This document shows positions 24,736 to 64,000 of a stretch of DNA of 64,000 nt, piece after piece. The position numbers were made by a program, and so were the translations under genes. Where the stretch lies: contig NC_086108.1 of the NCBI RefSeq assembly GCF_963921235.1, positions 46,502,001 to 46,566,000 on the forward strand. The letters are read 5' to 3'. This stretch comes from Mobula hypostoma (lineage: Eukaryota). The notes beneath the pieces were generated by a model, which ran no database searches, was not told the origin of the DNA, and was given only the letters and a program-made list of their open reading frames with translations. Positions within the stretch are counted from its first letter, which is position 1. The number at the start of each line of letters is the position of its first letter.

Positions 24736-24762
24736 TAAATAAACTACATTACCACAGAGGAG

Positions 24763-27315: not shown

Positions 27316-27423
27316 CATCTTGGCATAGTTTTCCATAGAATCCCTCATAGCAAACACACTTAAATGAACCAATTGTTTCCACACATTCACCATGGCCATT
27401 GCAACTGTCTGGAGCGCATGAAG
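27316..27423 (-). CDS. Selectin EGF-like domain exon (SCAPDSCNGHGECVETIGSFKCVCYEGFYGKLCQD)
   Basis: Not in the ORF track. 108 bp, acceptor tttcacag, donor ATG|gtgag. Selectin signature CxGHGECVETIxxxxCxCxxGFYGxxC. Confidence 0.95.
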
Positions 27424-29247: not shown

Positions 29248-32200
29248 CATCTGCCCTTCACCCTCACACTCCCACTGTTCCCATCTACCCTTCACCCTCA
29301 CACTCCCACTGTTCCCATCTACCCTTCACCCTCACACTCCCACTGTTCCCATCTGCCCTTCACCCCCACACTCCCACTGTTCCCATCTGCCCTTCACCCT
29401 CACACTCCCACTGTTCCCATCTGCCCTTCACCCCCACACTCCCACTGTTCCCATCCACCCTTCACCCTCACACTCCCACTATTCCCAAGTGCCCTTCACC
29501 CGCACATTCCCACTGTTCCCATCTACCCTTCACCCTCACACTCCCACTGTTCCCATCTGCCCTTCACCCTCACACTCCCACTGTTCCCATCTGCCCTTCA
29601 CCCTCACACTCCCACTGTTCCCATCTACCCTTCACCCGCACATTCCCACTGTTCCCATCTGCCCTTCACACTCACACTCCCACTGTTCCCATCTGCTCTT
29701 CACCCCCACACTCCCACTGTTCCCATCTATCCTTCACCCCCACACTCCCACTGTTCCCATCTACCATTCACCCTCACACTCCCACTGTTCCCATCTGCCC
29801 TTCACCCTCACACTCCCACTGCTCCTATCTGCCCTTCACTCTCACACTCCCACTGTTCCCATCTGCCCTTCACCCTCACAGTCCCACTGTTCCCATCTAC
29901 ACTTCACCCTCAAACTCCCACTGTTCCCATCTGCCCTTCACCCTCACACCTCCACTGTACCCATCTGCCCTTCACCCTCACACTCCCACTGTTGCCATCT
30001 GCCCTTCACCCTCACAGTCCCACTGTTCCCATCTACCCTTCACCCCAACACTCCCACTGTTCCCATCTACCCTTCACCCTCACACTCCCAGTTCCCATCT
30101 ACCCTTCACCCTCACACTCCCACTATTCCCATCTACCCTTCACCCCCACACTCCCACTGTTCCCATCTGCCCTTCACCCCCACACTCCCACTGTTCCTAT
30201 CTGCCCTTCACCCTCACACTCCCACTGTTCCCATCTGACCTTCACCCTCACACTCCCACTGTTCCCACCCGCCCTTCACACTCACACTCCCACTGATCCC
30301 ATCTACCCTTCCCCCCACACTACCACTGTTCCCATCTACCCTTCACCCTCACACTCCAACTGTTCCCATCTGCCCTTCACCCTCACAGTCCCACTGTTCC
30401 CATCTGCCCTTCACCCTCACACTCCCACTATTCCCATCTGACCTTCACCCTCACACTCCCACTGTTCCCACCCGCCCTTCACACTCACACTCGCACTATT
30501 CCCATCCACCCTTCACCCCCACACTCCCACTGTTCCCGTCTGCCCTTCACACTCACACTCCCACTTATCCCATCTACCCTTCACCCGCACACTCCCACTG
30601 TTCCCATCTACCTTTCACCCTCACACTCCCACTGTTCCCATCTGCCCTTCACCCGCACACTCCCACTGTTCCCAAGTGCCCTTCACCCGCACATTCCCAC
30701 TGTTCCCATCTGCCCTTCACCCTCACACTCCCACTGTTCCCATCTACCCTTCAACCTCACACTCCCACTGTTCCCGTCTGCCCTTCACCCCCACACTCCC
30801 ACTGTTCCCATCTGCCCTTCACCCTCACATTCCCACTGTTCCCATCTACCCTTCAACCTCACACTCCCACTGTTCCCGTCTGCCCTTCACCCCCACACTC
30901 CCACTGTTCCCATCTGCCCTTCACCCTCACACTCCCACTGTTCCCATCTACACTTCACCTTCACACTACCACTGTTCCCATCTACCCTTCACCCCCACAC
31001 TACCACTGTTCCGATCTGCCCTTCACCCCCACACTCCCACTGTTCCCATCTATCCTTCACCCCGACACTCCCACTGTTCCCATCTACCCTTCACCCTCAC
31101 ACTCCCACTGTTCCCATCTGCCCTTCACCCCCACAATCACACGGTTCCCATCTGCCCTTCACCCTCACACTCCCACTGTTCCCATCTACCCTTCACCCGC
31201 ACATTCCCACTGTTCCCATCTGCCCTTCACCCTCACACTCCCACTGTTCCCATCAACCCTTCACCCTCACACTACCACTGTTCCCATCTATCCTTAACCC
31301 CCACACTCCCACTGTTCCCATCTACCCTTCACCCTCACACTCCCACTGTTCCCATCTGCCCTTCACCCCCACACTCCCACTGTTCCCATCTACCCTTCAC
31401 CCTCACTCCCACTGTTCCCATCTACCCTTCACGCTCACACTCCCACTGTTCCCATCTGCCCTTCACCCTCACACTCCCACTGCTCCCATCTGCCCTTCAC
31501 CCTCACACTCCCACTGTTCCCATCTGCCCTTCACCCTCACATTCCCACTGTTCCCATCTACCCTTCACCCTCACAATCCCACTGTTCCCATCTGCCCTTC
31601 ACCCCCACACTCCCACGGTTCCCATCTGCCCTTCACCCCCACACTCCCACTGTTCCCATCTACCCTTCAGCCCCACACTCCCACTGTTCCCATCCACCCT
31701 TCACCCTCACACTCCCACTATTCCCAAGTGCCCTTCACCCGCACATTCCCACTGTTCCCATCTACCCTTCACCCTCACACTCCCACTGTTCCCATCTGCC
31801 CTTCACCCTCACACTCCCACTGTTCCCATCTGCCCTTCACCCTCACACTCCCACTGTTCCCATCTACCCTTCACCCGCACATTCCCACTGTTCCCATCTG
31901 CCCTTCACCCTCACACTCCCACTGTTCCCATCTGCTCTTCACCCCCACACTCCCACTGTTCCCATCTATCCTTCACCCCCACACTCCCACTGTTCCCATC
32001 GACCATTCACCCTCACACTCCCACTGTTCCCATCTGCCCTTCACTCTCACACTCCCACTGTTCCCATCTGCCCTTCACCCTCACATTCCCACTGTTCCCA
32101 TCTACACTTCACCCTCAAACTCCCACTGTTCCCATCTGCCCTTCACCCTCACACCTCCACTGTACCCATCTGCCCTTCACCCTCACACTCCCACTGTTCC

Positions 32201-35200
32201 CATCTGCCCTTCACCCTCACACTCCCACTGTTCCCATCCGCCCTTCACCCTCACACTCCCACTGATCCCATCTACCCTTCACCCCCACACGACCACTATT
32301 CCCATCCACCCTTCACCCTCACACTCCCACTGCTGCCATCTGCCCTTCACCCTCACAGTCCCACTGTTCCCATCTACCCTTCACCCCAACACTCCCACTG
32401 TTCCCATCTACCCTTCACCCTCACACTCCCAGTTCCCATCTACCCTTCACCCTCACACTCCCACTATTCCCATCTACCCTTCACCCCCACACTCCAACTG
32501 TTCCCATCTGCCCTTCACCCCCACACTCCCACTGTTCCCATCTGCCCTTCACCCTCACACTCCCACTGTTCCCATCTGACCTTCACCCTCACACTCCCAC
32601 TGTTCCCACCCGCCCTTCACACTCACACTCCCACTGATCCCATCTAACCTTCCCCCCACACTACCACTGTTCCCATCTACCCTTCACCCTCACACTCCCA
32701 CTGTTCCCATCTGCCCTTCACCCTCACAGTCCCACTGTTCCCATCTGCCCTTCACCCTCACACTCCCACTATTCCCATCTGACCTTCACCCTCACACTCC
32801 CACTGTTCCCACCCGCCCTTCACACTCACACTATTCCCATCCACACTTCACCCCCACACTCCCACAGTTCCCTTCTGCCCTTCACACTCACACTCCCACT
32901 GATCCCATCTACCCTTCACCCGCACACTCCCACTGTTCCCATCTACCTTTCACCCTCACACTCCCACTGTTCCCATCTGACCTTCACCCTCACACTCCCA
33001 CTGTTCCCATCTACCCTTCAACCTCACACTCCCACTGTTCCCGTCTGCCCTTCACCCCCACACTCCCACTGTTCCCATCTGCCCTTCACCCTCACACTCC
33101 CACTGTTCCCATCTACCCTTCACCCTCACACTCCCACTGTTCCCATCTACCCTTCACCCCCACACTACCACTGTTCCGATCTGCCCTTCACCCCCACACT
33201 CCCACTGTTCCCATCTATCCTTCACCCCCACACTCCCACTGTTCCCATCTACCCTTCACCCTCACACTCCCACTGTTCCCATCTGCCCTTCACCCCCACA
33301 CTCCCACGGTTCCCATCTGCCCTTCACCCTCACACTCCCACTGTTCCCATCTACCCTTCACCCGCACATTCCCACTGTTCCCATCTGCCCTTCACCCTCA
33401 CACTCCCACTGTTCCCATCTACCCTTCACCCTCACACTACCACTGTTCCCATCTATCCTTCACCCCCACACTCCCACTGTTCCCATCTACCCTTCACCCT
33501 CACACTCCCACTGTTCCCATCTGCCCTTCACCCCCACACTCCCACTGTTCCCATCTACCCTTCACCCTCACTCCCACTGTTCCCATCTACCCTTCACCCT
33601 CACACTCCCACTGTTCCCATCTGCCCTTCACCCTCACACTCCCACTGCTCCCATCTGCCCTTCACCCTCACACTCCCACTGTTCCCATCTGCCCTTCACC
33701 CTCACATTCCCACTGTTCCCATCTACCCTTCACCCTCACAATCCCACTGTTCCCATCTGCCCTTCACCCCGACACTCCCACGGTTCCCAACTGCCCTTCA
33801 CCCCCACACTCCCACTGTTCCCATCTACCCTTCAGCCCCACACTCCCACTGTTCCCATCTACCCTTCACCCTCACACTCCCACTGTTCCCATCTGCCCTT
33901 CACCCCCACACTCCCACGGTTCCCATCCGCCCTTCACCCCCACACTCCCACTGTTCCCATCCACCCTTCACCCTCACACTCCCACTGTTCCCATCCACCC
34001 TTCACCCTCACACTCCCACTGTTCCCATCCACCCTTCACCCCCACACTCCCACTGTTCCCATCGACCATTCACCCTCACACTCCCACTGTTCTCATCTGC
34101 CCTTCACTCTCACACTCCCACTGTTCCCATCTGCCCTTCACCCTCACATTCCCACTGTTCCCATCTACACTTCACCCTCAAACTCCCACTGTTCCCATCT
34201 GCCCTTCACCCTCACACCTCCACTGTACCCAGCTGCCCTTCACCCTCACACTCCCACCGTTCCCATCTGCCCTTCACCCTCACACTCCCACTGTTCCCAT
34301 CTGCCCTTCACCCTTACACTCCCACTGATCCCATCTACCCTTCACCCCCACACGACCACTGTTCCCATCTACCCTTCACCCTCACACTCCCACTGTTGCC
34401 ATCTGCCCTTCACCCTCACAGTCCCACTGTTCCCATCTACCCTTCACCCCAACACTCCCACTGTTCCCATCTACCCTTCACCCTCACACTCCCAGTTCCC
34501 ATCTACCCTTCACCCTCACACTCCCACTATTCCCATCTACCCTTCACCCCCACACTCCCACTGTTCCCATCTGCCCTTCACTCCCACACTCCCACTGTTC
34601 CCATCTGCCCTTCACCCTCACAGTCCCACTGTTCCCATCTGACCTTCACCCTCACACTCCCACTATTCCCACCCGCCCTTCACACTCACACTCCCACTGA
34701 TCCCATCTACCCTTCCCCCCACACTACCACTGATCCCATCTACCCTTCACCCTCACACTCCCACTGTTCCCATTTGCCCTTCACCCTCACAGTCCCACTG
34801 TTCCCATCTGCCCTTCACCCTCACACTCCCACTATTCCCATCTGACCTTCACCCTCACACTCCCACTGTTCCCACCCGCCCTTCACACTCACACTCGCAC
34901 TATTCCCATCCACACTTCACCCCCACACTCCCACTGTTCCCGTCTGCCCTTCACACTCACACTCCCACTGATCCCATCTACCCTTCACCCGCACACTCCC
35001 ACTGTTCCCATCTACCTTTCACCCTCACACTCCCACTGTTCCCATCTGCCCTTCACCCTCACACTCCCACTGTTCCCATCTACCCTTCACCCTCACACTC
35101 CCACTGTTCCCATCTGCCCTTCACCCTCACACTCCCACTGTTCCCATCTGCCCTTCACCCTCACACTCCCACTGTTCCCATCTACCCTTCACCCTCACAC

Positions 35201-38200
35201 TCCCACTGTTCCCATCTACCCTTCACCCCCACACTACCACTGTTCCGATCTGCCCTTCACCCCCACACTCCCACTGTTCCCATCTATCCTTCACCCCCAC
35301 ACTCCCACTGTTCCCATCTACCCTTCACCCTCACACTCCCACTGTTCCCATCTGCCCTTCACCCCCACAATCCCACGGTTCCCATCTGCCCTTCACCCTC
35401 ACACTCCCACTGTTCCCATCTACCCTTCACCCGCACATTCCCACTGTTCCCATCTGCCCTTCACCCTCACACTCCCACTGTTCCCATCTACCCTTCACCC
35501 TCACACTACCACTGTTCCCATCTATCCTTCACCCTCACACTCCCACTGTTCCCATCTACCCTTCACCCTCACACTCCCACTGTTCCCATCTGCCCTTCAC
35601 CCCCACACTCCCACTGTTCCCATCTACCCTTCACCCTCACACTCCCACTGTTCCCATCTACCCTTCACCCTCACACTCCCACTGTTCCCATCTGCCCTTC
35701 ACCCCCACACTCCCACTGTTCCCATCTACCCTTCACCCTCACACTCCCACTGTTCCCATCTACCCTTCACCCTCACACTCCCACTGTTCCCATCTACCCT
35801 TCACCCCCACACTCCCACTGTTCCCATCGCCCCTTCAGCCACACACTCCCACTGTTCCCATCTACCCTTCACCCCCACACTCCCACTGTTCCCATCACAC
35901 CCTTCACGCTCACACTCCCACTGTTCCCATCCACCCTTCACCCTCACACTCCCACTGTTCCCATCTACCCTTCACCCCCACACTCCCACTGTTCCCATCT
36001 ACCATTCACCCTCACACTCCCACTGTTCCCATCTACCCTTCACTCTCACACTCCCACTGTTCCCATCTACCCTTCACCCTCACACTCCCACTGTTCCCAT
36101 CTACCCTTCACCCTCACACTCCCACTGTTCCCATCTACCCTTCAGCCCCACACTCCCAGTGTTCCCATCTACCCTTCACCCTCACACTCCCACTGTTCCC
36201 ATCTACCCTTCACCCTCACACTCCCACTGTTCCCATCTACCCTTCAGCCCCACACTCCCACTGTTCCCAGCTGCCCTTCACCCTCACACTCCCACTGTTC
36301 CCATCTACCCTTCACCCTCACACTCCCACTGTTCCCATCTACCATTCACCCTGACACTCCCACTGTTCCCATCTGCCCTTCACACTCACACTCCCACTGT
36401 TCCCATCTGCCCTTCACCCTCACACCTCCACTGTACCCATCCGCCCTTCACCCTCACACTCCCAATGTTCCCATCTGCCCTTCACCCCCACACTCCCACG
36501 GTTCCCATCTGCCCTTCACCCTCACACTCCCACTGTTCCCATCTACCCTTCCCCCCACACTCCCACTGTTCCAATCTACCATTCACACTCACACTCCCAC
36601 TGTTCCCATCTACCCTTCACCCTCACACTCCCACTGTTCCCATCTGCCCTTCACCCCCACACTCCCACTGTTCCAATCTACCATTCACACTCACACTCCC
36701 ACTGTTCCCATCTGCCCTTCACGCCCACCCTCCCACTGTTCCCATCTGCCCTTCACACTCACACTCCCACTGATCCCATCTACCCTTCACCAGCACACTC
36801 CCACTGTACCCATCTGCCCTTCACCCGCACACTCCCACTGTTCCCAAATGCCCTTCACCCGCACACTCCCACTGTTCCCAAGTGCCCTTCACGCACACAT
36901 TCCCACTGTTCCCATCTGCGCTTCACCCTCACACTCCCACTGTTCCCATCTACCCTTCAACCTCACACTCCCACTGTTCACATCTGCCCTTCACCCCCAC
37001 ACTCCCACTGTTCCCATCTACCCTTCACCCTCACTCCCACTGTTCCCATCTACCCTTCACCCTCACACTCCCACTGTTCCCATCTGCCCTTCACCCTCAC
37101 ACTCCCACTGCTCCCATCTGCCCTTCACCCTCACACTCCCACTGTTCCCATCTGCCCTTCACCCTCACATTCCCACTGTTCCCATCTACCCTTCACCCTC
37201 ACAATCCCACTGTTCCCATCTGCCCATCACCCCGACACTCCCACGGTTCCCATCTGCCCTTCACCCCCACACTCCCACTGTTCCCATCTACCCTTCAGCC
37301 CCACACTCCCACTGTTCCCATCTACCCTTCACCCTCACACTCCCACTGTTCCCATCTGCCCTTCACCCCCACACTCCCACGGTTCCCATCCGCCCTTCAC
37401 CCCCACACTCCCACTGTTCCCATCCACCCTTCACCCTCACACTCCCACTGTTCCCATCCACCATTCACCCTCACACTCCCACTGTTCCCATCCACCCTGC
37501 ACCCCCACACTCCCACTGTTCCCATCGACCATTCACCCTCACACTCCCACTGTTCTCATCTGCCCTTCACTCTCACACTCCCACTGTTCCCATCTGCCCT
37601 TCACCCTCACATTCCCACTGTTCCCATCTACACTTCACCCTCAAACTCCCACTGTTCCCATCTGCCCTTCACCCTCACACCTCCACTGTACCCATCTGCC
37701 CTTCACCCTCACACTCCCACTGTTCCCATCTGCCCTTCACTCCCACACTCCCACTGTTCCCATCTGCCCTTCACCCTCACAGTCCCACTGTTCCCATCTG
37801 ACCTTCACCCTCACACTCCCACTGTTCCCACCCGCCCTTCACACTCACACTCCCACTGATCCCATCTACCCTTCCCCCCACACTACCACTGATCCCATCT
37901 ACCCTTCACCCTCACACTCCCACTGTTCCCATTTGCCCTTCACCCTCACAGTCCCACTGTTCCCATCTGCCCTTCACCCTCACACTCCCACTATTCCCAT
38001 CTGACCTTCACCCTCACACTCCCACTGTTCCCACCCGCCCTTCACACTCACACTCGCACTATTCCCATCCACACTTCACCCCCACACTCCCACTGTTCCC
38101 GTCTGCCCTTCACACTCACACTCCCACTGATCCCATCTACCCTTCACCCGCACACTCCCACTGTTCCCATCTACCTTTCACCCTCACACTCCCACTGTTC

Positions 38201-41200
38201 CCATCTGCCCTTCACCCTCACACTCCCACTGTTCCCATCTACCCTTCAACCTCACACTCCCACTGTTCCCGTCTGCCCTTCACCCCCACACTCCCACTGT
38301 TCCCATCTGCCCTTCACCCTCACACTCCCACTGTTCCCATCTACCCTTCACCCTCACACTCCCACTGTTCCCATCTACCCTTCACCCCCACACTACCACT
38401 GTTCCGATCTGCCCTTCACCCCCACACTCCCACTGTTCCCATCTATCCTTCACCCCCACACTCCCACTGTTCCCATCTACCCTTCACCCTCACACTCCCA
38501 CTGTTCCCATCTGCCCTTCACCCCCACAATCCCACGGTTCCCATCTGCCCTTCACCCTCACACTCCCACTGTTCCCATCTACCCTTCACCCGCACATTCC
38601 CACTGTTCCCATCTGCCCTTCACCCTCACACTCCCACTGTTCCCATCTACCCTTCACCCTCACACTACCACTGTTCCCATCTATCCTTCACCCCCACACT
38701 CCCACTGTTCCCATCTACCCTTCACCCTCACACTCCCACTGTTCCCATCTGCCCTTCACCCCCACACTCCCACTGTTCCCATCTACCCTTCACCCTCACT
38801 CCCACTGTTCCCATCTACCCTTCACCCTCACACTCCCACTGTTCCCATCTGCCCTTCACCCTCACACTCCCACTGCTCCCATCTGCCCTTCACCCTCACA
38901 CTCCCACTGTTCCCATCTGCCCTTCACCCTCACAATCCCACTGTTCCCATCTACCCTTCACCCCCACACTCCCACTGTTCCCATCTACCCTTCAGCCCCA
39001 CACTCCCACTGTTCCCATCTACCCTTCACCCTCACACTCCCACTGTTCCCATCTGCCCTTCACCCCCACACTCCCACGGTTCCCATCCGCCCTTCACCCC
39101 CACACTCCCACTGTTCCCATCCACCCTTCACGCTCACACTCCCACTGTTCCCATCCACCCTTCACCCTCACACTCCCACTGTTCCCATCTACCCTTCACC
39201 CCCACACTCCCACTGTTCCCATCTACCATTCACCCTCACACTCCCACTGTTCCCATCTACCCTTCACTCTCACACTCCCACTGTTCCCATCTACCCTTCA
39301 CCCTCACACTCCCACTGTTCCCATCTACCCTTCACCCTCACACTCCCACTGTTCCCATCTACCCTTCAGCCCCACACTCCCAGTGTTCCCATCTACCCTT
39401 CACCCTCACACTCCCACTGTTCCCATCTACCCTTCACCCTCACACTCCCACTGTTCCCATCTACCCTTCAGCCCCACACTCCCACTGTTCCCAGCTGCCC
39501 TTCACCCTCACACTCCCACTGTTCCCATCTACCCTTCACCCTCACACTCCCACTGTTCCCATCTACCATTCACCCTGACACTCCCACTGTTCCCATCTGC
39601 CCTTCACCCTCACACTCCCACTGTTCCCATCTGCCCTTCACCCTCACACCTCCACTGTACCCATCCGCCCTTCACCCTCACACTCCCAATGTTCCCATCT
39701 GCCCTTCACCCCCACACTCCCACGGTTCCCATCTGCCCTTCACCCTCACACTCCCACTGTTCCCATCTACCCTTCCCCCCACACTCCCACTGTTCCAATC
39801 TACCATTCACACTCACACTCCCACTGTTCCCATCTACCCTTCACCCTCACACTCCCACTGTTCCCATCTGCCCTTCACCCTCACACTCCCACTGTTCCCA
39901 TCTACCCTCACCCTCACACTCCCACTGTTCCCATCGACCCTTCACCCTCACACTCCCACTGTTCCCATCTACCATTCACCCTCACACTCCCACTGTTCCC
40001 ATCTACACTTCACCCCAACACTCCCACTGTTCCCATCTGCCCTTCACCCCCACCCTCCCACTGTTCCCATCTGCCCTTCACACTCACACTCCCACTGATC
40101 CCATCTACCCTACACCAGCACACTCCCACTGTACCCATCTGCCCTTCACCCGCACACTCCCACTGTTCCCAAATGCCCTTCACCCGCACACTCCCACTGT
40201 TCCCAAGTGCCCTTCACGCACACATTCCCACTGTTCCCATCTGCCCTTCACCCTCACACTCCCACTGTTCCCATCTACCCTTCAACCTCACACTCCCACT
40301 GTTCACATCTGCCCTTCACCCCCACACTCCCACTGTTCCCATCTGCCCTTCACCCTCACACTCCCACTGTTCCCATCTACCCTTCACCCTCACACTCCCA
40401 CTGTTCCCATCTGCCCTTCACCCCCACACTCCCACGGTTCCCATCTGCCCTTCACCCTCACACTCCCACTGTTCCCATCTACCCTTCACCGGCACATTCC
40501 CACTGTTCCCATCTGCCCTTCACCCTCACACTCCCACTGTTCCCATCTGCCCTTCACCCCCACACTCCCACTGTTCCCATCTATCCTTCACCCCCACACT
40601 CCCACTGTTCCCATCTACCATTCACCCTCACACTCCCACTGTTCCCATCTGCCCTTCACCCTCACACTCCCACTGTTCCCATCTGCCCTTCACCCTCACA
40701 TATCCACTGTTACCATCTACACTTCACCCTCACACTCCCACTGTTCCCATCTGCCCTTCACCCTCACACCTCCACTGTACCCATCCTCCCTTCACCCCAA
40801 CACTCCCACTGTTCCCATCTGCCCTTCACCCCCACACTCCCACGGTTCCCATCTGCCCTTCACCCTCACACTCCCACTGTTCCCATCTACCCTTCACCCC
40901 CACACTCCCACTGTTCCCATCCACCCTTCACCCTCACACTCCCACTGTTCCCATCCACCCTTCACCCTCACACTCCCACTGTTCCCATCTATCCTTCACC
41001 CCCACACTCGCACTGTTCCCATCTACCATTCACCCTCACACTACCACTGTTCCCATCTACCCTTCACCCTCACACTCCCACTGTTCCCATCTACCCTTCA
41101 CCCTCACACTCCCACTGTTCCCATCTACCCTTCACCCTCACACTCCCACTGTTCCCATCTACCCTTCAGCCCCACACTCCCAGTGTTCCCATCTACCCTT

Positions 41201-50200: not shown

Positions 50201-53200
50201 ATCCTTCACCCCCACACTCCCACTGTTCCCATCTACCCTTCACCCTCACACTCCCACTGTTCCCATCTGCCCTTCACCCCCACACTCCCACTGTTCCCAT
50301 CTGCCCTTCACCCTCACACTCCCACTGTTCCCATCTGCCCTTCACCCTCACACTCCCACTGTTCCCATCTACCCTTCACCCTCACACTCCCACTGTTCCC
50401 ATCTACCCTTCACCCTCACATTCCCACTGTTCCCATCTACCCTTCACCCCCACACTCCCACTGTTCCCATCTACCCTTCACCCTCACACTCCCACTGTTC
50501 CCATCTACCCTTCACCCTCACACTCCCACTGTTCCCATCTACCCTTCAGCCCCACACACCCACTGTTCCCATCTGCCCTTCACCCTCACACTCCCACTGT
50601 TCCCATCTACCCTTCACCCTCACACTCCCACTGTTCCCATCCACCCATTCACCCTCACACTCCCACTGTTCCCATCTGCCCTTCACCCTCACACTCCCAC
50701 TGTTCCCATCTGCCCTTCACCCCCACACTCCCACGGTTCCCATCTACCCTTCACCCTCACACTCCCACTGTTCCCATCTGCCCTTCACCCTCACACTCCC
50801 ACTGTTCCCATCTGCCCTTCACCCCCACACTCCCACTGTTCCCATCTGCCCTTCACCCTCACACTCCCACTGTTCCCATCTACCCTTCACCCCCACACTC
50901 CCACTGTTCCCATCTACCATTCACCCTCACACTCCCACTGTTCCCATCTACCCTTCACCCTCACACTCCCACTGTTCCCATCTGCCCTTCACCCTCACAC
51001 TCCCACTGTTCCCATCTACCCTTCACCCTCACACTCCCACTGTTCCCATCTACACTTCACCCCAACACTCCCACTGTTCCCATCTGCCCTTCACCCCCAC
51101 ACTCCCACTGTTCCCATCTGCCCTTCACCCTCACACTCCCACTGTTCCCATCTACCCTTCACCCTCACACTCCCACTGTTCCCATCTGCCCTTCACCCTC
51201 ACACTCCCACTGTTCCCATCTGCCCTTCACCCGCACACTCCCACTGTTCCCATCTGCCCTTCACCCTCACACTCCCACTGTTCCCATCTACCCTTCACCC
51301 TCACACTCCCACTGTTCCCATCTGCCGTTCACCCTCACACTCCCACTGTTCCCATCTACCCTTCACCCTCACACTCCCACTGTTCCCATCTGCCCTTCAC
51401 CCCCACACTCCCACTGTTCCCATCTGCCCTTCACCCTCACACTCCCACTGTTCCCATCTACCCTTCACCCTCACACTCCCACTGTTCCCATCTGCCCTTC
51501 ACTCCTCACACTCCCACTGTTCCCATCTGCCCTTCACCCTCACAGTCCCACTGTTCCCATCTGACCTTCACCCTCACACTCCCACTGTTCCCACCCGCCC
51601 TTCACACTCACACTCCCACTGATCCCATCTACCCTTCACCCCCACACTCCCACTGTTCCCATCTACCCTTCACCCTCACACTCCCACTGTTCCCATCTGC
51701 CCTTCACCCTCACACTCCCACTGTTCCCATCTGCCCTTCACCCTCACACTCCCACTGTTCCCATCTGACCTTCACCCTCACACTCCCACTGTTCCCACCC
51801 GCCCTTCACACTCACACTCGCACTATTCCCATCCACACTTCACCCCCACACTCCCACTGTTCCCGTCTGCCCTTCACTCTCACACTCCCACTGTTCCCAT
51901 CTACCCTTCACCCGCACACTCCCACTGTTCCCATCTACCCTTCACCCTCACACTCCCACTGTTCCCATCTGCCCTTCACCCTCACACTCCCACTGTTCCC
52001 ATCTACCCTTCAACCTCACACTCCCACTGTTCCCGTCTGCCCTTCACCCCCACACTCCCACTGTTCCCATCTGCCCTTCACCCTCACACTCCCACTGTTC
52101 CCATCTACCCTTCACCCTCACACTCCCACTGTTCCCATCTACCCTTCACCGTCACACTCCCAATGTTCCCATCTGCCCTTCACCCCCACACTACCACTGT
52201 TCCCATCTATCCTTCACCCCCACACTCCCACTGTTCCCATCTACCCTTCACCCTCACACTCCCACTGTTCCCATCTGCCCTTCACCCCCACACTCCCACT
52301 GTTCCCATCTGCCCTTCACCCTCACACTCCCACTGTTCCCATCTACCCTTCACCCTCACACTCCCACTGTTCCCATCTGCCCTTCACCCACACACTCCCA
52401 CTGTTCCCATCGACCCTTCACCCTCATACTCCCACTGTTCCCATCTATCCTTCACCCCCACACTCCCACTGTTCCCATCTACCCTTCACCCTCACACTCC
52501 CACTGTTCCCATCTGCCCTTCACCCCCACACTCCCACTGTTCCCATCTACCCTTCACCCTCACACTCCCACTGTTCCCATCTACCCTTCACCTTCACACT
52601 CCCACTGTTCCCATCTGCCCTTCACCCTCACACTCCCACTGCTCCCATCTGCCCTTCACCCTCACACTCCCACTGTTCCCATCTGCCCTTCACCCTCACA
52701 CTCCCACTGTTCCCATCTGCCCTTCACCCCCACACTCCCACTGTTCCCATCTACCCTTCACCCTCACACTCCCACTGTTCCCATCTACCCTTCACCCTCA
52801 CACTCCCACTGTTCCCATCTGCCCTTCACCCCCACACTCCCACTGTTCCCATCTGCCCTTCACCCCCACACTCCCACTGTTCCCATCCACCCTTCACCCT
52901 CACACTCCCACTGTTCCCATCTACCCTTCACCCTCACACTCCCACTGTTCCCATCTGCCCTTCACCCCCACACTCCCACTGTTCCCATCTACCATTCACC
53001 CTCACACTCCCACTGTTCCCATCTACCCTTCACCCTCACACTCCCACTGTTCCCATCTACCCTTCACCCTCACACTCCCACTGTTCCCATCTACCCTTCA
53101 CCCTCACACTCCCACTGTTCCCATCTACCCTTCACCCTCACACTCCCACTGTTCCCATCTACCCTTCACCCTCACACTCCCACTGTTCCCATCTACCCTT

Positions 53201-56200
53201 CACCCTCACACTCCCACTGTTCCCATCTACCCTTCACCCCCACACTCCCACTGTTCCCATCTGCCCTTCACCCTCACACTCCCACTGTTCCCATCTACCC
53301 TTCACCCTCACACTCCCACTGTTCCCATCGACCATTCACCCTCACACTCCCACTGTTCCCATCTGCCCTTCACCCTCACACTCCCACTGTTCCCATCTGC
53401 CCTTCACCCTCACACCTCCACTGTACCCATCTGCCCTTCACCCTCACACTCCCACTGTTCCCATCTGCCCTTCACCCCCACACTCCCACTGTTCCCATCT
53501 GCCCTTCACCCTCACACTCCCACTGTTCCCATCTACCCTTCACCCCCACACTCCCACTGTTCCCATCTACCATTCACCCTCACACTCCCACTGTTCCCAT
53601 CTACCCTTCACCCTCACACTCCCACTGTTCCCATCTGCCCTTCACCCTCACACTCCCACTGTTCCCATCTACCCTTCACCCTCACACTCCCACTGTTCCC
53701 ATCTACCCTTCACCCTCACACTCCCACTGTTCCCATCTACCATTCACCCTCACACTCCCACTGTTCCCATCTACACTTCACCCCAACACTCCCACTGTTC
53801 CCATCTGCCCTTCACCCCCACACTCCCACTGTTCCCATCTGCCCTTCACACTCACACTCCCACTGTTCCCATCTACCCTTCACCCGCACACTCCCACTGT
53901 ACCCATCTGCCCTTCACCCGCACACTCCCACTGTTCCCAAATGCCCTTCACCCGCACACTCCCATTGTTCCCAAGTGCCCTTCACGCACACATTCCCACT
54001 GTTCCCATCTGCCCTTCACCCTCACACTCCCACTGTTCCCATCTACCCTTCAACCTCACACTCCCACTGTTCCCATCTGCCCTTCACCCTCACACTCCCA
54101 CTGTTCCCATCTGCCCTTCACCCTCACACTCCCACTGTTCCCATCTACCCTTCACCCTCACACTCCCACTGTTCCCATCTGCCCTTCACCCCCACACTCC
54201 CACTGTTCCCATCTGCCCTTCACCCTCACACTCCCACTGTTCCCATCTACCCTTCACCCTCACATTCCCACTGTTCCCATCTGCCCTTCACCCTCACACT
54301 CCCACTGTTCCCATCTGCCCTTCACCCCCACACTCCCACTGTTCCCATCTATCCTTCACCCCCACACTCCCACTGTTCCCATCTACCATTCACCCTCACA
54401 CTCCCACTGTTCCCATCTGCCCTTCACCCTCACACTCCCACTGTTCCCATCTGCCCTTCACCCTCACATTCCCACTGTTCCCATCTACACTTCACCCTCA
54501 CACACCCACTGTTCCCATCTGCCCTTCACCCTCACACCTCCACTGTACCCATCCTCCCTTCACCCCAACACTCCCACTGTTCCCATCTGCCCTTCACCCC
54601 CACACTCCCACGGTTCCCATCTGCCCTTCACCCTCACACTCCCACTGTTCCCATCTACCCTTCACCCCCACACTCCCACTGTTCCCATCTGCCCTTCACC
54701 CTCACACTCCCACTGTTCCCATCCACCCTTCACCCTCACACTCCCACTGTTCCCATCTACCCTTCACCCCCACACTCCCACTGTTCCCATCTACCCTTCA
54801 CCCTCACACTCCCACTGTTCCCATCTACCCTTCACCCTCACACTCCCACTGTTCCCATCTACCCTTCACCCTCACACTCCCACTGTTCCCATCTACCCTT
54901 CACCCTCACACTCCCACTGTTCCCATCTACCCTTCACCCCCACACTCCCACTGTTCCCATCTACCCTTCACCCTCACACTCCCACTGTTCCCATCTACCC
55001 TTCACCCTCACACTCCCACTGTTCCCATCTACCCTTCACCCCCACACTCCCACTGTTCCCATCTGCCCTTCACCCTCACACTCCCACTGTTCCCATCTAC
55101 CCTTCACCCTCACACTCCCACTGTTCCCATCTACCATTCACCCTCACACTCCCACTGTTCCCATCTGCCCTTCACCCTCACACTCCCACTGTTCCCATCT
55201 GCCCTTCACCCTCACACCTCCACTGTACCCATCTGCCCTTCACCCTCACACTCCCACTGTTCCCATCTGCCCTTCACCCCCACACTCCCACTGTTCCCAT
55301 CTGCCCTTCACCCTCACACTCCCACTGTTCCCATCTACCCTTCACCCCCACACTCCCACTGTTCCCATCTACCCTTCACCCTCACACTCCCACTGTTCCC
55401 ATCTACCCTTCACCCTCACACTCCCACTGTTCCCATCTGCCCTTCACCCTCACACTCCCACTGTTCCCATCTACCCTTCTCCCTCACACTCCCACTGTTC
55501 CCATCTACCCTTCACCCTCACAATCCCACTGTTCCCATCTACCATTCACCCTCACACTCCCACTGTTCCCATCTACACTTCACCCCAACACTCCCACTGT
55601 TCCCATCTGCCCTTCACCCCCACACTCCCACTGTTCCCATCTGCCCTTCACCCTCACACTCCCACTGTTCCCATCTACCCTTCACCCGCACACTCCCACT
55701 GTTCCCATCTGCCCTTCACCCGCACACTCCCACTGTTCCCATCTGCCCTTCACCCGCACACTCCCACTGTTCCCATCTGCTCTTCACCCCCACACTCCCA
55801 CTGTTCCCATCTGCCCTTCACCCGCACACTCCCACTGTTCCCATCTACCCTTCACCCTCACACTCCCACTGTTCCCATCTGCCCTTCACCCACACACTCC
55901 CACTGTTCCCATCTGCCCTTCACCCTCACACTCCCACTGTTCCCATCTACCCTTCACCCTCACACTCCCACTGTTCCCATCTGCCCTTCACCCCCACACT
56001 CCCACTGTTCCCATCTGCCCTTCACCCTCACACTCCCACTGTTCCCATCTACCATTCACCCTCACACTCCCACTGTTCCCATCTGCCCTTCACCCTCACA
56101 CTCCCACTGTTCCCATCTGCCCTTCACCCTCACACTCCCACTGTTCCCATCTACCCTTCACCCTCACACTCCCACTGTTCCCATCTGCCCTTCACCCTCA

Positions 56201-59200
56201 CACTCCCACTGTTCCCATCTACCCTTCACCCTCACACTCCCACTGTTCCCATCTACCCTTCACCCTCACACTCCCACTGTTCCCATCTACCCTTCACCCT
56301 CACACTCCCACTGTTCCCATCTACCCTTCACCCTCACACTCCCACTGTTCCCATCTACCCTTCACCCTCACACTCCCACTGTTCCCATCTGCCCTTCACC
56401 CCCACACTCCCACTGTTCCCATCTGCCCTTCACCCTCACACTCCCACTGTTCCCATCTACCCTTCACCCTCACACTCCCACTGTTCCCATCTACCCTTCA
56501 CCCTCACACTCCCACTGTTCCCATCTGCCCTTCACCCTCACACTCCCACTGTTCCCATCTGCCCTTCACCCTCACACCTCCACTGTTCCCATCTGCCCTT
56601 CACCCTCACACTCCCACTGTTCCCATCTGCCCTTCACCCCCACACTCCCACGGTTCCCATCTGCCCTTCACCCTCACACTCCCACTGTTCCCATCTACCC
56701 TTCACCCCCACACTCCCACTGTTCCCATCTACCATTCACCCTCACACTCCCACTGTTCCCATCTACCCTTCACCCTCACACTCCCACTGTTCCCATCTAC
56801 CCTTCACCCTCACACTCCCACTGTTCCCATCTACCATTCACCCTCACACTCCCACTGTTCCCATCTACACTTCACCCCAACACTCCCACTGTTCCCATCT
56901 GCCCTTCACCCCCACACTCCCACTGTTCCCATCTTCCCTTCACACTCACACTCCCACTGTTCCCATCTACCCTTCACCCGCACACTCCCACTGTTCCCAT
57001 CTGCCCTTCACCCGCACACTCCCACTGTTCCCATCTGCCCTTCACCCGCACACTCCCACTGTTCCCAAGTGCCCTTCACCCACACATTCCCACTGTTCCC
57101 ATCTGCCCTTCACCCTCACACTCCCACTGTTCCCATCTACCCTTCACCCTCACACTCCCACTGTTCCCATCTACCCTTCACCCTCACACTCCCACTGTTC
57201 CCATCTGCCCTTCACCCTCACACTCCCACTGTTCCCATCTGCCCTTCACCCTCACACTCCCACTGTTCCCATCTGCCCTTCACCCTCACACTCCCACTGT
57301 TCCCATCTACCCTTCACCCTCACACTCCCACTGTTCCCATCTGCCCTTCACCCTCACACTCCCACTGTTCCCATCTGCCCTTCACCCCCACACTCCCACT
57401 GTTCCCATCTTCCCTTCACCCCCACACTCCCACTGTTCCCATCTACCCTTCACCCTCACACTCCCACTGTTCCCATCTGCCCTTCACCCTCACACTCCCA
57501 CTGTTCCCATCTGCCCTTCACCCTCACACCTCCCACTGTTCCCATCTACCTTCACCCTCACACTCCCACTGTTCCCATCTGCCCTTCACCCTCACACCAC
57601 CACTGTACCCATCTGCCCTTCACCCTCACACTCCCACTGTTCCCATCTGCCCTTCACCCTCACACTCCCACTGTTCCCATCTGCCCTTCACCCTCACACT
57701 CCCACTGATCCCATCTACCCTTCACCCTCACACTCCCACTATTCCCATCTGACCTTCACCCTCACACTCCCACTGTTCCCATCTGCCCTTCACCCTCACA
57801 CTCCCACTGTTCCCATCTACCCTTCACCCTCACACTCCCACTGTTCCCATCTACCCTTCACCCGCACACTCCCACTGTTCCCATCTGCCCTTCACCCTCA
57901 CACTCCCACTGTTCCCATCTGCCCTTCACCCCCACACTCCCACTGTTCCCATCTATCCTTCACCCTCACACTCCCACTGTTCCCATCTGCCCTTCACCCC
58001 CACACTCCCACTGTTCCCATCAGCCCTTCACCCTCACACTCCCACTGTTCCCATCTACCATTCACCCTCACACTCCCACTGTTCCCATCTGCCCTTCACC
58101 CCCACACTCCCACTGTTCCCATCTATCCTTCACCCCCACACTCCCACTGTTCCCATCTACCCTTCACCCTCATACTCCCAATGATTCCCATCTGCCCTTC
58201 ACCCCCACACTCCCACTGTTCCCATCTGACCTTCACCCTCACACTCCCACTGTTCCCATCTACCCTTCACCCTCACACTCCCACTGTTCCCATCTACCCT
58301 TCACCCTCACACTCCCACTGTTCCCATCTGCCCTTCACCCTCACACTCCCACTGTTCCCATCTGACCTTCACCCTCACACTCCCACTGTTCCCACCTGCC
58401 CTTCACACTCACACTCCCACTGTTCCCATCCACCCTTCACCGCCACACTCCCACTGTTCCCATCTGCCCTTCACACTCACACTCCCACTGTTCCCATCTA
58501 CCCTTCACCCGCACACTCCCACTGTTCCCATCTGCCATTCACCCTCACACTCCCACTGTTCCCATCTGCCCTTCACCCCCACACTCCCACTGTTCCCATC
58601 TATCCTTCACCCTCACACTCCCACTGTTCCCATCTGCCCTTCACCCCCACACTCCCACTGTTCCCATCTGCCCTTCACCCTCACACTCCCACTGTTCCCA
58701 TCTACCCTTCACCCGCACATTCCCACTGTTCCCATCTGCCCTTCACCCTCACACTCCCACTGTTCCCATCTGCCCTTCACCCCCACACTCCCACTGTTCC
58801 CATCTATCCTTCACCCCCACACTCCCACTGTTCCCATCTACCCTTCACCCTCACACTCCCACTGTTCCCATCTGCCCTTCACCCCCACACTCCCACGGTT
58901 CCCATCTGCCCTTCACCCTCACACTCCCACTGTTCCCATCTACCCTTCACCCCCACACTCCCACTGTTCCCATCCACCCTTCACCCTCACACTCCCACTG
59001 TTCCCATCCACCCTTCACCCTCACACTCCCACTGTTCCCATCAACCCTTCACCCCCACACTCCCACTGTTCCCATCTGCCCTTCACCCTCACACTCCCAC
59101 TGTTCCCATCTGCCCTTCACCCGCACACTCCCACTGTTCCCATCTGCCCTTCACACCCACACTCCCACTGTTCCCATCTACCCTTCACCCTCACACTCCC

Positions 59201-62200
59201 ACTGTTCCCATCTACCCTTCACCCTCACACTCCCACTGTTCCCATCTACCCTTCACCCCCACACTCCCACTGTTCCCATCTACCCTTCACCCTCACACTC
59301 CCACTGTTCCCATCTACCCTTCACCCTCACACTCCCACTGTTCCCATCTACCCTTCACCCTCACACTCCCACTGTTCCCATCTGCCCTTCACCCTCACAC
59401 TCCCACTGTTCCCATCTACCCTTCACCCTCACACTCCCACTGTTCCCATCCACCATTCACCCTCACACTCCCACTGTTCCCATCTGCCCTTCACCCTCAC
59501 ACTCCCACTGTTCCCATCTGCCCTTCACCCCCACACTCCCACTGTTCCCATCTACCCTTCACCCTCACACTCCCACTGTTCCCATCTGCCCTTCACCCTC
59601 ACACTCCCACTGTTCCCATCTGCCCTTCACCCCCACACTCCCACTGTTCCCATCTGCCCTTCACCCTCACACTCCCACTGTTCCCATCTACCCTTCACCC
59701 CCACACTCCCACTGTTCCCATCTACCATTCACCCTCACACTCCCACTGTTCCCATCTACCCTTCACCCTCACACTCCCACTGTTCCCATCTGCCCTTCAC
59801 CCTCACACTCCCACTGTTCCCATCTACCATTCACCCTCACACTCCCACTGTTCCCATCTACACTTCACCCCAACACTCCCACTGTTCCCATCTGCCCTTC
59901 AGCCCCACACTCCCACTGTTCCCATCTGCCCTTCACCCTCACACTCCCACTGTTCCCATCTACCCTTCACCCGCACACTCCCACTGTTCCCATCTGCCCT
60001 TCACCCGCACACTCCCACTGTTCCCATCTGCCCTTCACCCGCACACTCCCACTGTTCCCATCTACCCTTCACCCTCACACTCCCACTGTTCCCATCTACC
60101 CTTCACCCTCACACTCCCACTGTTCACATCTGCCCTTCACCCCACACTCCCACTGTTCCCATCTACCCTTCACCCTCACACTCCCACTGTTCCCATCTGC
60201 CCTTCACCCCCGCACTCCCACTGTTCCCACCCGCCCTTCACACTCACACTCGCACTGTTCCCATCTACCATTCACCCTCACACTCCCACTGTTCCCATCT
60301 GCCCTTCACCCTCACACTCCCACTGTTCCCATCTACCCTTCACCCGCACACTCCCACTGTTCCCATCTGCCCTTCACCCTCACACTCCCACTGTTCCCAT
60401 CTGCCCTTCACCCCCACACTCCCACTGTTCCCATCTATCCTTCACCCCCACACTCCCACTGTTCCCATCTACCATTCACCCTCACACTCCCACTGTTCCC
60501 ATCTGCCCTTCACCCTCACACTCCCACTGTTCCCATCTGCCCTTCACCCTCACACTCCCACTGTTCCCATCCTCCCTTCACCCCAACACTCCCACTGTTC
60601 CCATCTGCCCTTCACCCCCACACTCCCACGGTTCCCATCTGCCCTTCACCCTCACACTCCCACTGTTCCCATCTACCCTTCACCCCCACACTCCCACTGT
60701 TCCCATCCACCCTTCACCCTCACACTCCCACTGTTCCCATCCACCCTTCACCCTCACACTCCCACTGTTCCCATCTATCCTTCACCCCCACACTCCCACT
60801 GTTCCCATCTACCCTTCACCCTCACACTCCCACTGTTCCCATCTACCCTTCACCCTCACACTCCCACTGTTCCCATCTACCCTTCACCCTCACACTCCCA
60901 CTGTTCCCATCTACCCTTCACCCTCACACTCCCACTGTTCCCATCTACCCTTCAGCCCCACACTCCCAGTGTTCCCATCTACCCTTCACCCTCACACTCC
61001 CACTGTTCCCATCCACCCTTCACCCTCACACTCCCACTGTTCCCATCTACCCTTCAGCCCTCACACTCCCACTGTTCCCATCTGCCCTTCACCCTCACAC
61101 TCCCACTGTTCCCATCTACCCTTCACCCTCACACTCCCACTGTTCCCATCTACCCTTCACCCTCACACTCCCACTGTTCCCATCTGCCCTTCACCCTCAC
61201 ACTCCCACTGTTCCCATCTGCCCTTCACCCTCACACTCCCACTGTTCCCATCTGCCCTTCACCCTCACACTCCCACTGTTCCCATCTACCCTTCACCCCC
61301 ACACTCCCACTGTTCCCATCTGCCCTTCACCCTCACACTCCCACTGTTCCCATCTACCCTTCACCCTCACACTCCCACTGTTCCCATCTACCATTCACCC
61401 TCACACTCCCACTGTTCCCATCTACCCTTCACCCTCACACTCCCACTGTTCCCATCTGCCCTTCACCCTCACACTCCCACTGTTCCCATCTACCCTTCAC
61501 CCTCACACTCCCACTGTTCCCATCTACCCTTCACCCTCACACTCCCACTGTTCCCATCTACCATTCACCCTCACACTCCCACTGTTCCCATCTACACTTC
61601 ACCCCAACACTCCCACTGTTCCCATCTGCCCTTCACCCCCACACTCCCACTGTTCCCATCTAACCTTCACCCTCACACTCCCACTGTTCCCATCTACCCT
61701 TCACCCTCACACTCCCACTGTTCCCATCTGCCCTTCACCCGCACACTCCCACTGTTCCCATCTGCCCTTCACCCGCACACTCCCACTGTTCCCATCTGCC
61801 CTTCACCCCCACACTCCCACTGTTCCCATCTGCCCTTCACCCGCACACTCCCACTGTTCCCATCCACCCTTCACCCTCACACTCCCACTGTTCCCATCTG
61901 CCCTTCACCCACACACTCCCACTGTTCCCATCTGCCCTTCACCCTCACACTCCCACTGTTCCCATCTACCCTTCAACCTCACACTCCCACTGTTCCCATC
62001 TGCCCTTCACCCCCACACTCCCACTGTTCCCATCTGCCCTTCAACCCCACACTCCCACTGTTCCCATCTACCCTTCACCCTCACACTCCCACTGTTCCCA
62101 TCTGCCCTTCACCCTCACACTCCCACTGTTCCCATCTGCCCTTCACCCTCACACTCCCACTGTTCCCATCTACACTTCACCCTCACACTCCCACTGTTCC

Positions 62201-64000
62201 CATCTGCCCTTCACCCTCACACTCCCACTGTTCCCATCTACCCTTCACCCCAACACTCCCACTGTTCCCATCTGCCCTTCACCCCCACACTCCCACTGTT
62301 CCCATCTGCCCTTCACCCTCACACTCCCACTGTTCCCATCTACCCTTCACCCCCACACTCCCACTGTTCCCATCCACCCTTCACCCTCACACTCCCACTG
62401 TTCCCATCCACCCTTCACCCTCACACTCCCACTGTTCCCATCTATCCTTCACCCCCACACTCCCACTGTTCCCATCTACCCTTCACCATCACACTCCCAC
62501 TGTTCCCATCTACCCTTCACCCTCACACTCCCAGTGTTCCCATCTACCCTTCACCCTCACACTCCCACTGTTCCCATCTACCCTTCACCCTCACGCTCCC
62601 ACTGTTCCCATCTACCCTTCAGCCCCACACTCCCACTGTTCCCATCTGCCCTTCACCCTCACACTCCCACTGTTCCCATCTACCCTTCACCCTCACACTC
62701 CCACTGTTCCCATCTACCATTCACCCTCACACTCCCACTGTTCCCATCTGCCCTTCACCCTCACACTCCCACTGTTCCCATCTGCCCTTCACCCTCACAC
62801 TCCCACTGTTCCCATCTGCCCTTCACCCTCACACTCCCAATGTTCCCATCTGCCCTTCACCCCCACAGTCCCACTGTTCCCATCTCCCCTTCACCCTCAC
62901 ACTCCCACTCTTCCCATCGACCCTTCACCTCCACACTCCCACTGTTCCCATCTACCATTCACCCTCACACTCCCACTGTTCCCATGTACCCTTCACCCTC
63001 ACACTCCCACTGTTCCCATCTACCCTTCACCCTCACACTCCCACTGTTCCCATCTACCATTCACCCTCACACTCCCACTGTTCCCATCTACCCTTCACCC
63101 ACACACTCCCACTGTTCCCATCTGCCCTTCACCCCCACACTCCCACTGTTCCCATCTAACCTTCACACTCACACTCCCACTGATCCCATCTACCCTTCAC
63201 CCGCACACTCCCACTGTACCTCATCTGCCCTTCACCCGCACACTCCCACTGTTCCCAAATGCCCTTCACCCGCACACTCCCACTGTTCCCAAGTGCCCTT
63301 CACCCACACATTCCCACTGTTCCCATCTGCCCTTCACCCTCACACTCCCACTGTTCCCATCTACCCTTCACCCTCACACTCCCACTGTTCCCATCTGCCC
63401 TTCACCCCCACACTCCCACTGTTCCCATCTGCCCTTCACCCTCACACTCCCACTGTTCCCATCTACCCTTCACCCTCACACTCCCACTGTTCCCATCTGC
63501 CCTTCACCCCCACACTCCCACTGTTCCCATCTGCCCTTCACCCTCACACTCCCACTGTTCCCATCTACCCTTCACCCGCACACTCCCACTGTTCCCATCT
63601 GCCCTTCACCCTCACACTCCCACTGTTCCCATCTGCCCTTCACCCCCACACTCCCACTGTTCCCATCTATCCCTCACCCCCACACTCCCACTGTTCCCAT
63701 CTACCCTTCACCCTCACACTCCCACTGTTCCCATCTGCCCTTCACCCTCACACTCCCACTGTTCCCATCTGCCCTTCACCCTCACATTCCCACTGTTCCC
63801 ATCTACACTTCACCCTCACACTCCCACTGTTCCCATCTGCCCTTCACCCTCACACCACCACTGTACCCATCTGCCCTTCACCCTCACACTCCCACTGTTC
63901 CCATCTGCCCTTCACCCTCACACTCCCACTGTTCCCATCTGCCCTTCACCCTCACACTCCCACTGTTCCCATCTACCCTTCACCCTCACACTCCCACTGT
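29248..64000. repeat. 34-bp tandem satellite, about 1,020 units; consensus CCCATCTRCCCTTCACCCYCACACTCCCACTGTT; continues past the window end
   Basis: Read directly. Three units give the 34-aa period seen in the ORF track. The C-rich plus strand has only 1-2 G per unit. Confidence 0.99.

What the first reader, a model, noticed from the sequence alone, without database searches (positions are those of the whole stretch)
29248..64000. 35-kb array with one canonical G-quadruplex motif per 34-bp unit, G-rich on the selectin sense strand
Seen: on the minus strand the unit reads GGG-aacagt-GGG-agtgtga-GGG-tgaa-GGG-cagat. That is exactly four G3 tracts with 4-7 nt loops, so the array holds about 1,000 consecutive G4 motifs, with C3 (i-motif-type) tracts on the plus strand. 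The two commonest polymorphisms sit in loops, and one of them lengthens a G-run. Known: transcribed repeats with a G-rich non-template strand form R-loops/G-loops and are recombinogenic (immunoglobulin switch regions, human G-rich minisatellites such as CEB1). Inference: if the lectin exon lies beyond the array, the pre-mRNA carries over 34 kb of G4-forming RNA. That would be a switch-region-like structure inside an immune adhesion gene, able to slow transcription or drive instability.
Basis: partly seen in the sequence, partly recalled or inferred. Interest (0 to 1): 0.75.

Follow-up and report, generated by a model that had tools for sequence, protein, structure and literature searches.

The report
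Giant G-rich repeat inside selectin intron
A 56,000-base run of one 34-base G-rich repeat fills almost all of one intron of an immune adhesion (selectin) gene and is spliced out of the assembled messages; it likely grew in place from a dead jumping gene, and its predicted four-stranded folds are likely a weak by-product rather than an antibody-switch-like device.

Summary
The array is real and larger than reported: 55,941 bp, 1,647 units, single-locus (878 of 878 genome matches). It fills 96.5% of the 57,942-nt lectin–EGF intron of a selectin gene and is G-rich on the sense strand. Contigs from two species join the lectin exon directly to the EGF exon, so it is transcribed through and spliced out. 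The G4 count was overstated: 832 motifs in the window, 72% of units intact, longest intact run 27 units. Nothing shows selection for G4: G-tracts vary as much as loops, and loops of 4–7 nt predict weak folds. The switch-region reading fails: AGCT is 0.09/kb against 4.9/kb in the flank, and there is no partner region. The array starts in the 3′ UTR of a decayed Penelope-like element lying antisense to the gene. The unit matches that UTR (≤1 of 1,000 shuffles), which likely explains the strand bias. R-loops are plausible but untested. The scan noted this array's other end and similar giant arrays in this genome before. Side finding: between two species, all 15 changed lectin codons listed alter the amino acid. 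Verdict: a new, very large member of a known kind.

The parts
29248..64000 (-). 34-bp G-rich minisatellite, window part. It continues 21 kb beyond the window (whole array G000:C50:46531248-46587188; 55,941 bp, 1,646.6 copies, 254 distinct units). Beyond its far end, outside the window, lie a short high-copy repeat fragment (about C50:46587190-46587333, resembling a CR1 LINE 3' tail; label recalled, not tested) and the intact 387-nt selectin C-type lectin exon (C50:46587366-46587752, minus), whose 5' splice site is 177 nt from the array.
   Evidence: TRF; unit decomposition; lectin exon; repeat fragment
28940..29247 (+). Decayed Penelope-like retroelement end: GIY-YIG endonuclease C-terminus followed by about 90 nt of C/T-rich 3' UTR that runs into the array. 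It lies antisense to the selectin gene; the remnant may extend further left.
   Evidence: tblastx/nhmmer to other copies; 39 other genomic matches among 40 scored; a related copy has weak RVT_1 and GIY-YIG Pfam hits below the curated cut-offs
27316..27423 (-). Selectin EGF exon. Its 3' splice site is 1,824 nt from the array end.
   Evidence: Pfam EGF E 2.5e-7; spliced contigs; sequence
2207..26596 (-). Eight sushi (CCP) exons of the same gene inside the window; more follow to the left of the window.
   Evidence: Pfam Sushi for 8 of 8; five of them joined in spliced contigs; tblastn

Best explanation
This is a single-locus giant minisatellite that fills the lectin-EGF intron of a selectin gene and is spliced out of the assembled messages; it likely grew in place from the C-rich 3' UTR of a dead Penelope-like element, and it is likely a tolerated passenger whose predicted G4 and R-loop capacity is an unselected by-product. 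Steps: (1) a Penelope-like element lies antisense in the intron (remnant shown; insertion inferred). (2) A stretch of about 34 nt of its pyrimidine-rich tail was duplicated and amplified by slippage and by multi-unit duplication or unequal exchange (unit homology and higher-order periods shown; mechanism inferred). (3) Because the element is antisense, the sense strand is G-rich (shown). (4) The array has no AATAAA/ATTAAA and no pyrimidine tract of 8 nt or more on the sense strand, so it likely offers no polyA site or 3' splice site and is skipped by the spliceosome (motif counts and lectin-EGF junction shown; cause inferred). (5) Weak long-loop G4s and R-loops probably form transiently during transcription (predicted, untested) without having been selected.
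For: The array starts about 90 nt behind the endonuclease-like end. Summed local alignment of the unit to the 3' regions of the 14 nearest element copies scores 416, reached by 0 of 1,000 base shuffles and 1 of 1,000 dinucleotide shuffles. The same core is tandemly repeated at 3 other loci, 2 of them just downstream of an endonuclease end. All 878 exact genome matches of a 29-nt pattern are in this array. Tract sites vary as much as loop sites (median 2.0% vs 1.9%, Mann-Whitney p 0.30-0.74). 549 of 1,200 variant copies fall in tracts, which are 37.5% of the sites counted. The three paralogous lectin-EGF introns are about 0.3, 2.2 and 4.3 kb, with 0-1 G4 motifs. Run X16 has lectin at contig 468-855 and EGF at 854-961. 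Run X8 has lectin at 240-627 on the contig whose sushi-3 exon is at 1114-1299. Rare variants recur at lags of 268, 582, 137 and 61 units (best 35 matches; at most 15 in 20 order shuffles).
Against: The four-tract arrangement is unusual for the unit's dinucleotide content (0.7% of shuffles), and only 3 of the 14 element tails hold a G4 motif, so a G4-bearing seed may have been favoured in amplification. A profile-HMM test of unit homology was weak (11 of 1,000 shuffles as good). ViennaRNA prefers G4 in the RNA (6 units: -28.9 vs -13.8 kcal/mol without G4). A related 34-bp-period repeat is in organism B, so it has persisted. The array-side flank is more diverged between A and B than more distant pieces (4.8% vs 1.9%). 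None of 60 evenly spaced 10-kb samples fell in an array over 2 kb, so arrays of this size are not commonplace per base. The spliced contigs come from other samples than the genome, and their array length is unknown.
Confidence: 0.7

Rival explanations
1. The array began as a passenger but acts as a length-dependent brake on selectin output: co-transcriptional R-loops and G4s over 56 kb, starting 177 nt after the 5' splice site, slow elongation or change splicing, as shown for TERT VNTR6-1.
For: The sense strand is 53% G with G3 clusters every 4-7 nt. In switch constructs a high-G elongation zone lowered transcription (PMC4245955, passages). Deleting a sense-strand G4 VNTR in TERT changed isoform ratios (PMC11830802, abstract and passages). 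The array lengthens this intron 13- to 170-fold relative to the paralogues.
Against: No conservation of tracts. Correctly spliced contigs in 3 of 3 RNA-type runs laid on the downstream exons and 2 of 2 laid on the lectin exon. No expression, allele or R-loop data.
Confidence: 0.16
2. The array is a local mutation or recombination hot spot that raises variation in its flanks, including the lectin exon 177 nt away, and uncouples lectin alleles from the rest of the gene.
For: A versus B: lectin exon 21 of 388 differences against 14 of 1,045 in EGF and five sushi exons (p 5e-5). EGF-side flank 52 of 1,086 against 98 of 5,267 further off (p 1e-7). G>T on the G-rich strand is the commonest tract-breaking change by copies.
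Against: All 15 changed lectin codons listed (17 of 21 differences were shown) alter the amino acid, which fits selection on the protein better than raised mutation. Linked balancing selection or decay of element DNA could explain the flank. Only the longest contig pieces were listed. The lectin piece is also more diverged than upstream intron pieces in organism D (8.6% vs 5.3%), where no array was seen next to it.
Confidence: 0.07
3. It is a functional switch-region-like element that targets AID or programmed recombination in an immune gene.
For: Long, repetitive, transcribed, with a G-rich non-template strand.
Against: AGCT is about 50-fold and WGCW about 40-fold rarer than in the flank. No partner array at exact match, and none in the paralogous introns. 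No promoter of its own was tested.
Confidence: 0.03
4. The length is an assembly artefact (an expanded repeat).
Against: No N gap in 264 kb. 254 distinct units. The longest exactly duplicated block is 21 units, 714 bp. Divergence changes smoothly along the array. A related repeat of the same period is seen in organism B.
Confidence: 0.04

Closest known systems
Human TERT intron 6 VNTR6-1 (PMC11830802; abstract and passages read)
   Same: Intronic minisatellite (38-bp unit) predicted to form many G4s on the sense strand.
   Different: 24-66.5 units there, with an effect on splicing shown by deletion and ligands. Here 1,647 units, canonical but long-looped motifs, and no effect shown.
Human CACNA1C intron 3 VNTR (PMC11118589; passages read)
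   Same: Single-locus intronic array of a roughly 30-bp unit with many unit variants and internal multi-unit duplications; alleles up to 61 kb.
   Different: No G4 is mentioned in that text (0 occurrences), and typical alleles are about 6-8 kb. Here the seed is traceable to a retroelement tail.
Human G4 minisatellites CEB1 and CEB25 (PMC5491262; passages read)
   Same: G-rich tandem unit with G-triplets.
   Different: Instability there needs single- or zero-nucleotide loops and high thermal stability. Here all loops are 4-7 nt.
Mammalian immunoglobulin switch regions (PMC4245955; passages read)
   Same: Repetitive, transcribed, G-clusters and over 46% G on the non-template strand.
   Different: No AGCT/WGCW density, no partner region, no known recombination.
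Transposon-derived minisatellites (class recalled; also named in earlier scan notes e1-8038371, e1-8033915, e1-9055229)
   Same: Array born inside a decayed element, from a part of its sequence.
   Different: Size, and a four-G-tract unit. Searches listed no paper on Penelope-seeded minisatellites in cartilaginous fish (titles and abstract starts only).

Membership tests
Single-locus intronic minisatellite (VNTR) | Head-to-tail unit of 10-100 bp | tested here: met
   34 bp, 1,646.6 copies, 92% matches
Single-locus intronic minisatellite (VNTR) | Confined to one locus | tested here: met
   878 of 878 exact matches of a 29-nt pattern lie in the array; diverged relatives are not counted by this test
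Single-locus intronic minisatellite (VNTR) | Lies within a spliced intron | tested here: met
   GT-AG intron of 57,942 nt; lectin-EGF junction in X8 and X16 contigs
Single-locus intronic minisatellite (VNTR) | Copy number varies between alleles | not testable with these tools
   One assembly only; contigs of other runs do not span the array
Transposon-derived minisatellite (Penelope-like 3' UTR) | Array abuts or lies within an element remnant at the matching position | tested here: met
   Starts about 250 nt from the start of the endonuclease-end match; the best core matches in related copies mostly lie at 242-343. No element sequence was found on the far side.
Transposon-derived minisatellite (Penelope-like 3' UTR) | Unit homologous to the element | tested here: met
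   0 and 1 of 1,000 shuffles reach the summed score; the HMM version is weaker, 11 of 1,000
Transposon-derived minisatellite (Penelope-like 3' UTR) | Element has RT followed by a GIY-YIG endonuclease | tested here: inconclusive
   A related broken copy gives RVT_1 E 0.0024 and GIY-YIG E 0.022, both below cut-off; the window remnant itself has no Pfam hit
G4-destabilised minisatellite (CEB1 type) | G4 motif in the unit | tested here: met
   1,159 of 1,602 units; mean G4Hunter 1.21, with 54% of 25-nt windows at or above 1.2 and 11% at or above 1.5
G4-destabilised minisatellite (CEB1 type) | Short (0-1 nt) loops and high stability | tested here: not met
   Loops 6, 7, 4, 5; one unit folds at -3.5 kcal/mol in the ViennaRNA model
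G4-destabilised minisatellite (CEB1 type) | G4 shown biophysically and G4-dependent instability | not testable with these tools
   Needs CD/UV melts and a cell assay
Immunoglobulin switch region | G-clusters and 35-50% or more G on the non-template strand of a transcribed repeat | tested here: met
   52.7% G, 5% C; criteria
Immunoglobulin switch region | Dense AGCT/WGCW AID targets | tested here: not met
   0.09 and 0.52 per kb against 4.9 and 22 per kb in the flank
Immunoglobulin switch region | Partner switch region in cis | tested here: not met
   No comparable array in the 464 kb fetched around the locus; single-locus pattern
Immunoglobulin switch region | R-loops and AID-dependent recombination in vivo | not testable with these tools
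   No chromatin or somatic data

The most novel reading that the evidence does not exclude
A retroelement-born 56-kb G-loop array 177 nt from the ligand-binding exon acts as a length-tunable brake on selectin expression and as a local mutation or recombination hot spot. It would feed a lectin domain that, unlike mammalian selectin lectins, is under diversifying selection.
Probability: 0.08. Interest if true: 0.75.

Novelty: new member of a known kind. Interest (0 to 1): 0.3.

Why it matters
As a passenger, it shows that a vertebrate gene can be transcribed and correctly spliced across about 56 kb of near-continuous G4/R-loop-prone sequence, and that Penelope-like tails can seed such arrays. 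That makes it a natural extreme test case for whether predicted G4 density matters in vivo, but not a new mechanism. It would matter more if allele length tuned selectin output, or if the array drove the excess divergence seen in its flank and in the lectin exon.

Tried and rejected
Selection for G-tracts: rejected by per-site and frequency-class tests (only the singleton class leans away from tracts, 2 of 13, p 0.15). Genome-wide satellite family: rejected at exact match. Coding potential: the long plus-strand open frames into the array are a consequence of a stop-free C-rich unit on the antisense strand and were not pursued. Run search: no listed holder is on record as RNA; the RNA label is a guess, and I rely only on splice joints. 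Depth on the array end in other runs could not be read because the adjoining high-copy repeat swamps the bin. In organism D a contig runs 439 nt past the lectin-side match without fitting the flank or the unit: a weak hint only. Default blastn missed the element remnant; tblastx and nhmmer found it. The lectin comparison used a wrong frame and was discarded (redone). Paralogue extraction failed (redone). The literature search on shark minisatellites listed nothing relevant. Supplements of the papers were not opened.

Full report
Observation. TRF finds one 34-bp array from 29248 to the window end (1,022.9 copies, 92% matches) with GC skew of about -0.83. The window is G000:C50:46502001-46566000. 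With 200 kb of neighbouring sequence the array ends at C50:46587188: 55,941 bp, 1,646.6 copies, no N gap. The minus-strand unit has four GGG tracts with loops of 6, 7, 4 and 5 nt. There are 832 non-overlapping canonical motifs in the window part and 1,333 in the whole array; 1,159 of 1,602 34-nt units keep all four tracts, and the longest intact run is 27 units. All copies descend from one unit, so the chance test is on the unit: 9.3% of 20,000 base shuffles and 0.7% of 20,000 dinucleotide shuffles give a motif per unit, while the G4Hunter score is ordinary for the composition.

Host gene. One EGF and eight sushi exons lie on the minus strand of the window (Pfam, 9 of 9). A C-type lectin exon lies at C50:46587366-46587752, with L-, P- and E-selectin as best PDB matches; I cannot assign a subtype. 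The lectin-EGF intron is 57,942 nt, 96.5% array. The array starts 177 nt after the 5' splice site and ends 1,824 nt before the 3' site. Three paralogues in the cluster have introns of about 0.3, 2.2 and 4.3 kb with 0-1 G4 motifs.

Transcription. No listed run is on record as RNA. However, X8 and X11 (organism A, other samples than the genome) and X16 (organism B) each hold one contig that joins EGF and five sushi exons at splice-site dinucleotides. Contigs of the same length and depth carry the lectin exon. In X16 lectin is at 468-855 and EGF at 854-961, overlapping by the shared AG. In X8 lectin is at 240-627; its EGF position (626-735) I derive from the listed sushi-3 piece and the joints. 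So the intron is spliced out. That polymerase crosses the array is an inference, and those samples' array lengths are unknown. The sense strand of the array has no AATAAA or ATTAAA and no pyrimidine tract of 8 nt or more, though it has 1,051 GTRAG words.

Origin. The plus-strand flank at about 28940-29247 matches the C-terminal coding end of an abundant element. A related broken copy gives weak RVT_1 and GIY-YIG hits below cut-off, so the Penelope-like label rests partly on recall and on earlier scan notes. The array begins in the element's pyrimidine-rich tail. The unit aligns to the tails of the 14 nearest copies better than 1,000 of 1,000 base shuffles and 999 of 1,000 dinucleotide shuffles. 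A profile-HMM version is weaker (11 of 1,000), and several single copies show no match. The same core is tandemly repeated at 3 other loci (4 matches), 2 of them 60-190 nt behind an endonuclease end. The element is antisense to the gene, which by itself makes the sense strand G-rich. The array is single-locus: 878 of 878 exact matches. Rare variants recur at lags of 61 to 582 units, beyond order shuffles, which points to multi-unit duplication. The longest exact duplicate is 714 bp, arguing against an assembly artefact. In organism B's DNA a contig joint on the array end has 18 unit-like letters and implies a 68-nt (2 x 34) step, so a related repeat probably predates the A/B split; its size is unknown.

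G4 and switch readings. Tract sites are as variable as loop sites, and 549 of 1,200 variant copies hit tracts, which are 12 of 32 sites; copies are not independent events. One unit folds as a G4 at -3.5 kcal/mol in ViennaRNA, and six real units at -28.9 against -13.8 without G4: weak per motif but little competition. PMC5491262 (passages) reports that only short-loop, stable G4s destabilised CEB25 and CEB1 in yeast. PMC4245955 (passages) gives G-clusters plus 35-50% G as R-loop criteria, which are met (52.7% G), and uses AGCT/WGCW sites as AID targets, which are nearly absent here. No partner array lies in the 464 kb fetched. R-loops are therefore plausible; switch function is not.

How ordinary. 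In 60 evenly spaced 10-kb samples there were 6 arrays of 200 bp or more (period 10 or more, 5 or more copies), 2 of 1 kb or more, none over 2 kb, and 1 of 6 held G4 motifs. So giant arrays are not commonplace per base. Earlier, unchecked scan notes list four others of 15 to 57 kb in this genome, three tied to Penelope-like elements. Known analogues are TERT VNTR6-1 and the CACNA1C VNTR with alleles up to 61 kb. Searches listed no paper on this locus or on such arrays in cartilaginous fish; I saw titles and abstract starts only.

Evidence against pure neutrality. Between A and B the EGF-side flank differs at 52 of 1,086 sites against 98 of 5,267 further away, and the lectin exon at 21 of 388 against 14 of 1,045 in the other exons. 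Only the longest contig pieces were listed. The 17 listed lectin differences fall in 15 codons, all amino-acid changing, against 4 of 8 listed in EGF and sushi exons. For the 14 single-change codons the neutral probability is 0.037. This fits selection on the lectin better than a mutagenic array. PMC10329266 (passages) found little positive selection in mammalian selectin lectin domains.

Verdict. A real, very large, intronic G-rich minisatellite, most likely an element-born passenger (0.70). A regulatory brake (0.16), a local hot spot (0.07), an assembly artefact (0.04) and switch-like function (0.03) are the rivals. New member of a known kind; interest 0.3.

Noticed in passing
L011:1366-1752 (G000:C50:46587366-46587752, minus): The lectin exon diverges about four times faster than the EGF and sushi exons between organisms A and B (21/388 vs 14/1,045). 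All 15 changed codons among the 17 listed differences alter the amino acid, and organism D shares B's base at 11 of 17. This suggests diversifying selection, unlike mammalian selectins.
   Followed up: partly
window 28155-29240: The array-adjacent flank is 4.8% diverged from organism B against 1.9% for more distant pieces, and B's contigs at both flanks have lower depth than most unique pieces (3.2-4.6 vs 6-8), possibly heterozygous.
   Followed up: partly
G000:C50:46475302-46528591 (minus): About 17 sushi exons plus one with a stop follow the EGF exon with no other lectin or EGF exon between. If they are one gene, it is far longer than mammalian selectins (P-selectin has nine, recalled).
   Followed up: partly
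G000:C50:46407085-46407432 (plus; L029): The lectin exon of one of the three paralogues has an in-frame TGA, possibly a pseudogene. Its lectin-EGF intron holds a different 80-bp x 10.4 tandem repeat, C-rich on the sense strand.
   Followed up: no
window 25694-25774 (minus): An 81-nt intron between two sushi exons reads as GC-AG in all three spliced contigs.
   Followed up: no
window 29248-64000 and beyond: G>T on the G-rich strand is the commonest tract-breaking change (312 of 549 copies), and unit divergence alternates between homogeneous and diverged blocks along the array.
   Followed up: partly
window 23800-24700 (minus) and 2800-6460 (plus): Other decayed retroelement fragments lie in the gene's introns: a second Penelope-like end in sense orientation, and LINE-like endonuclease/RT frames (labels recalled).
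   Followed up: no
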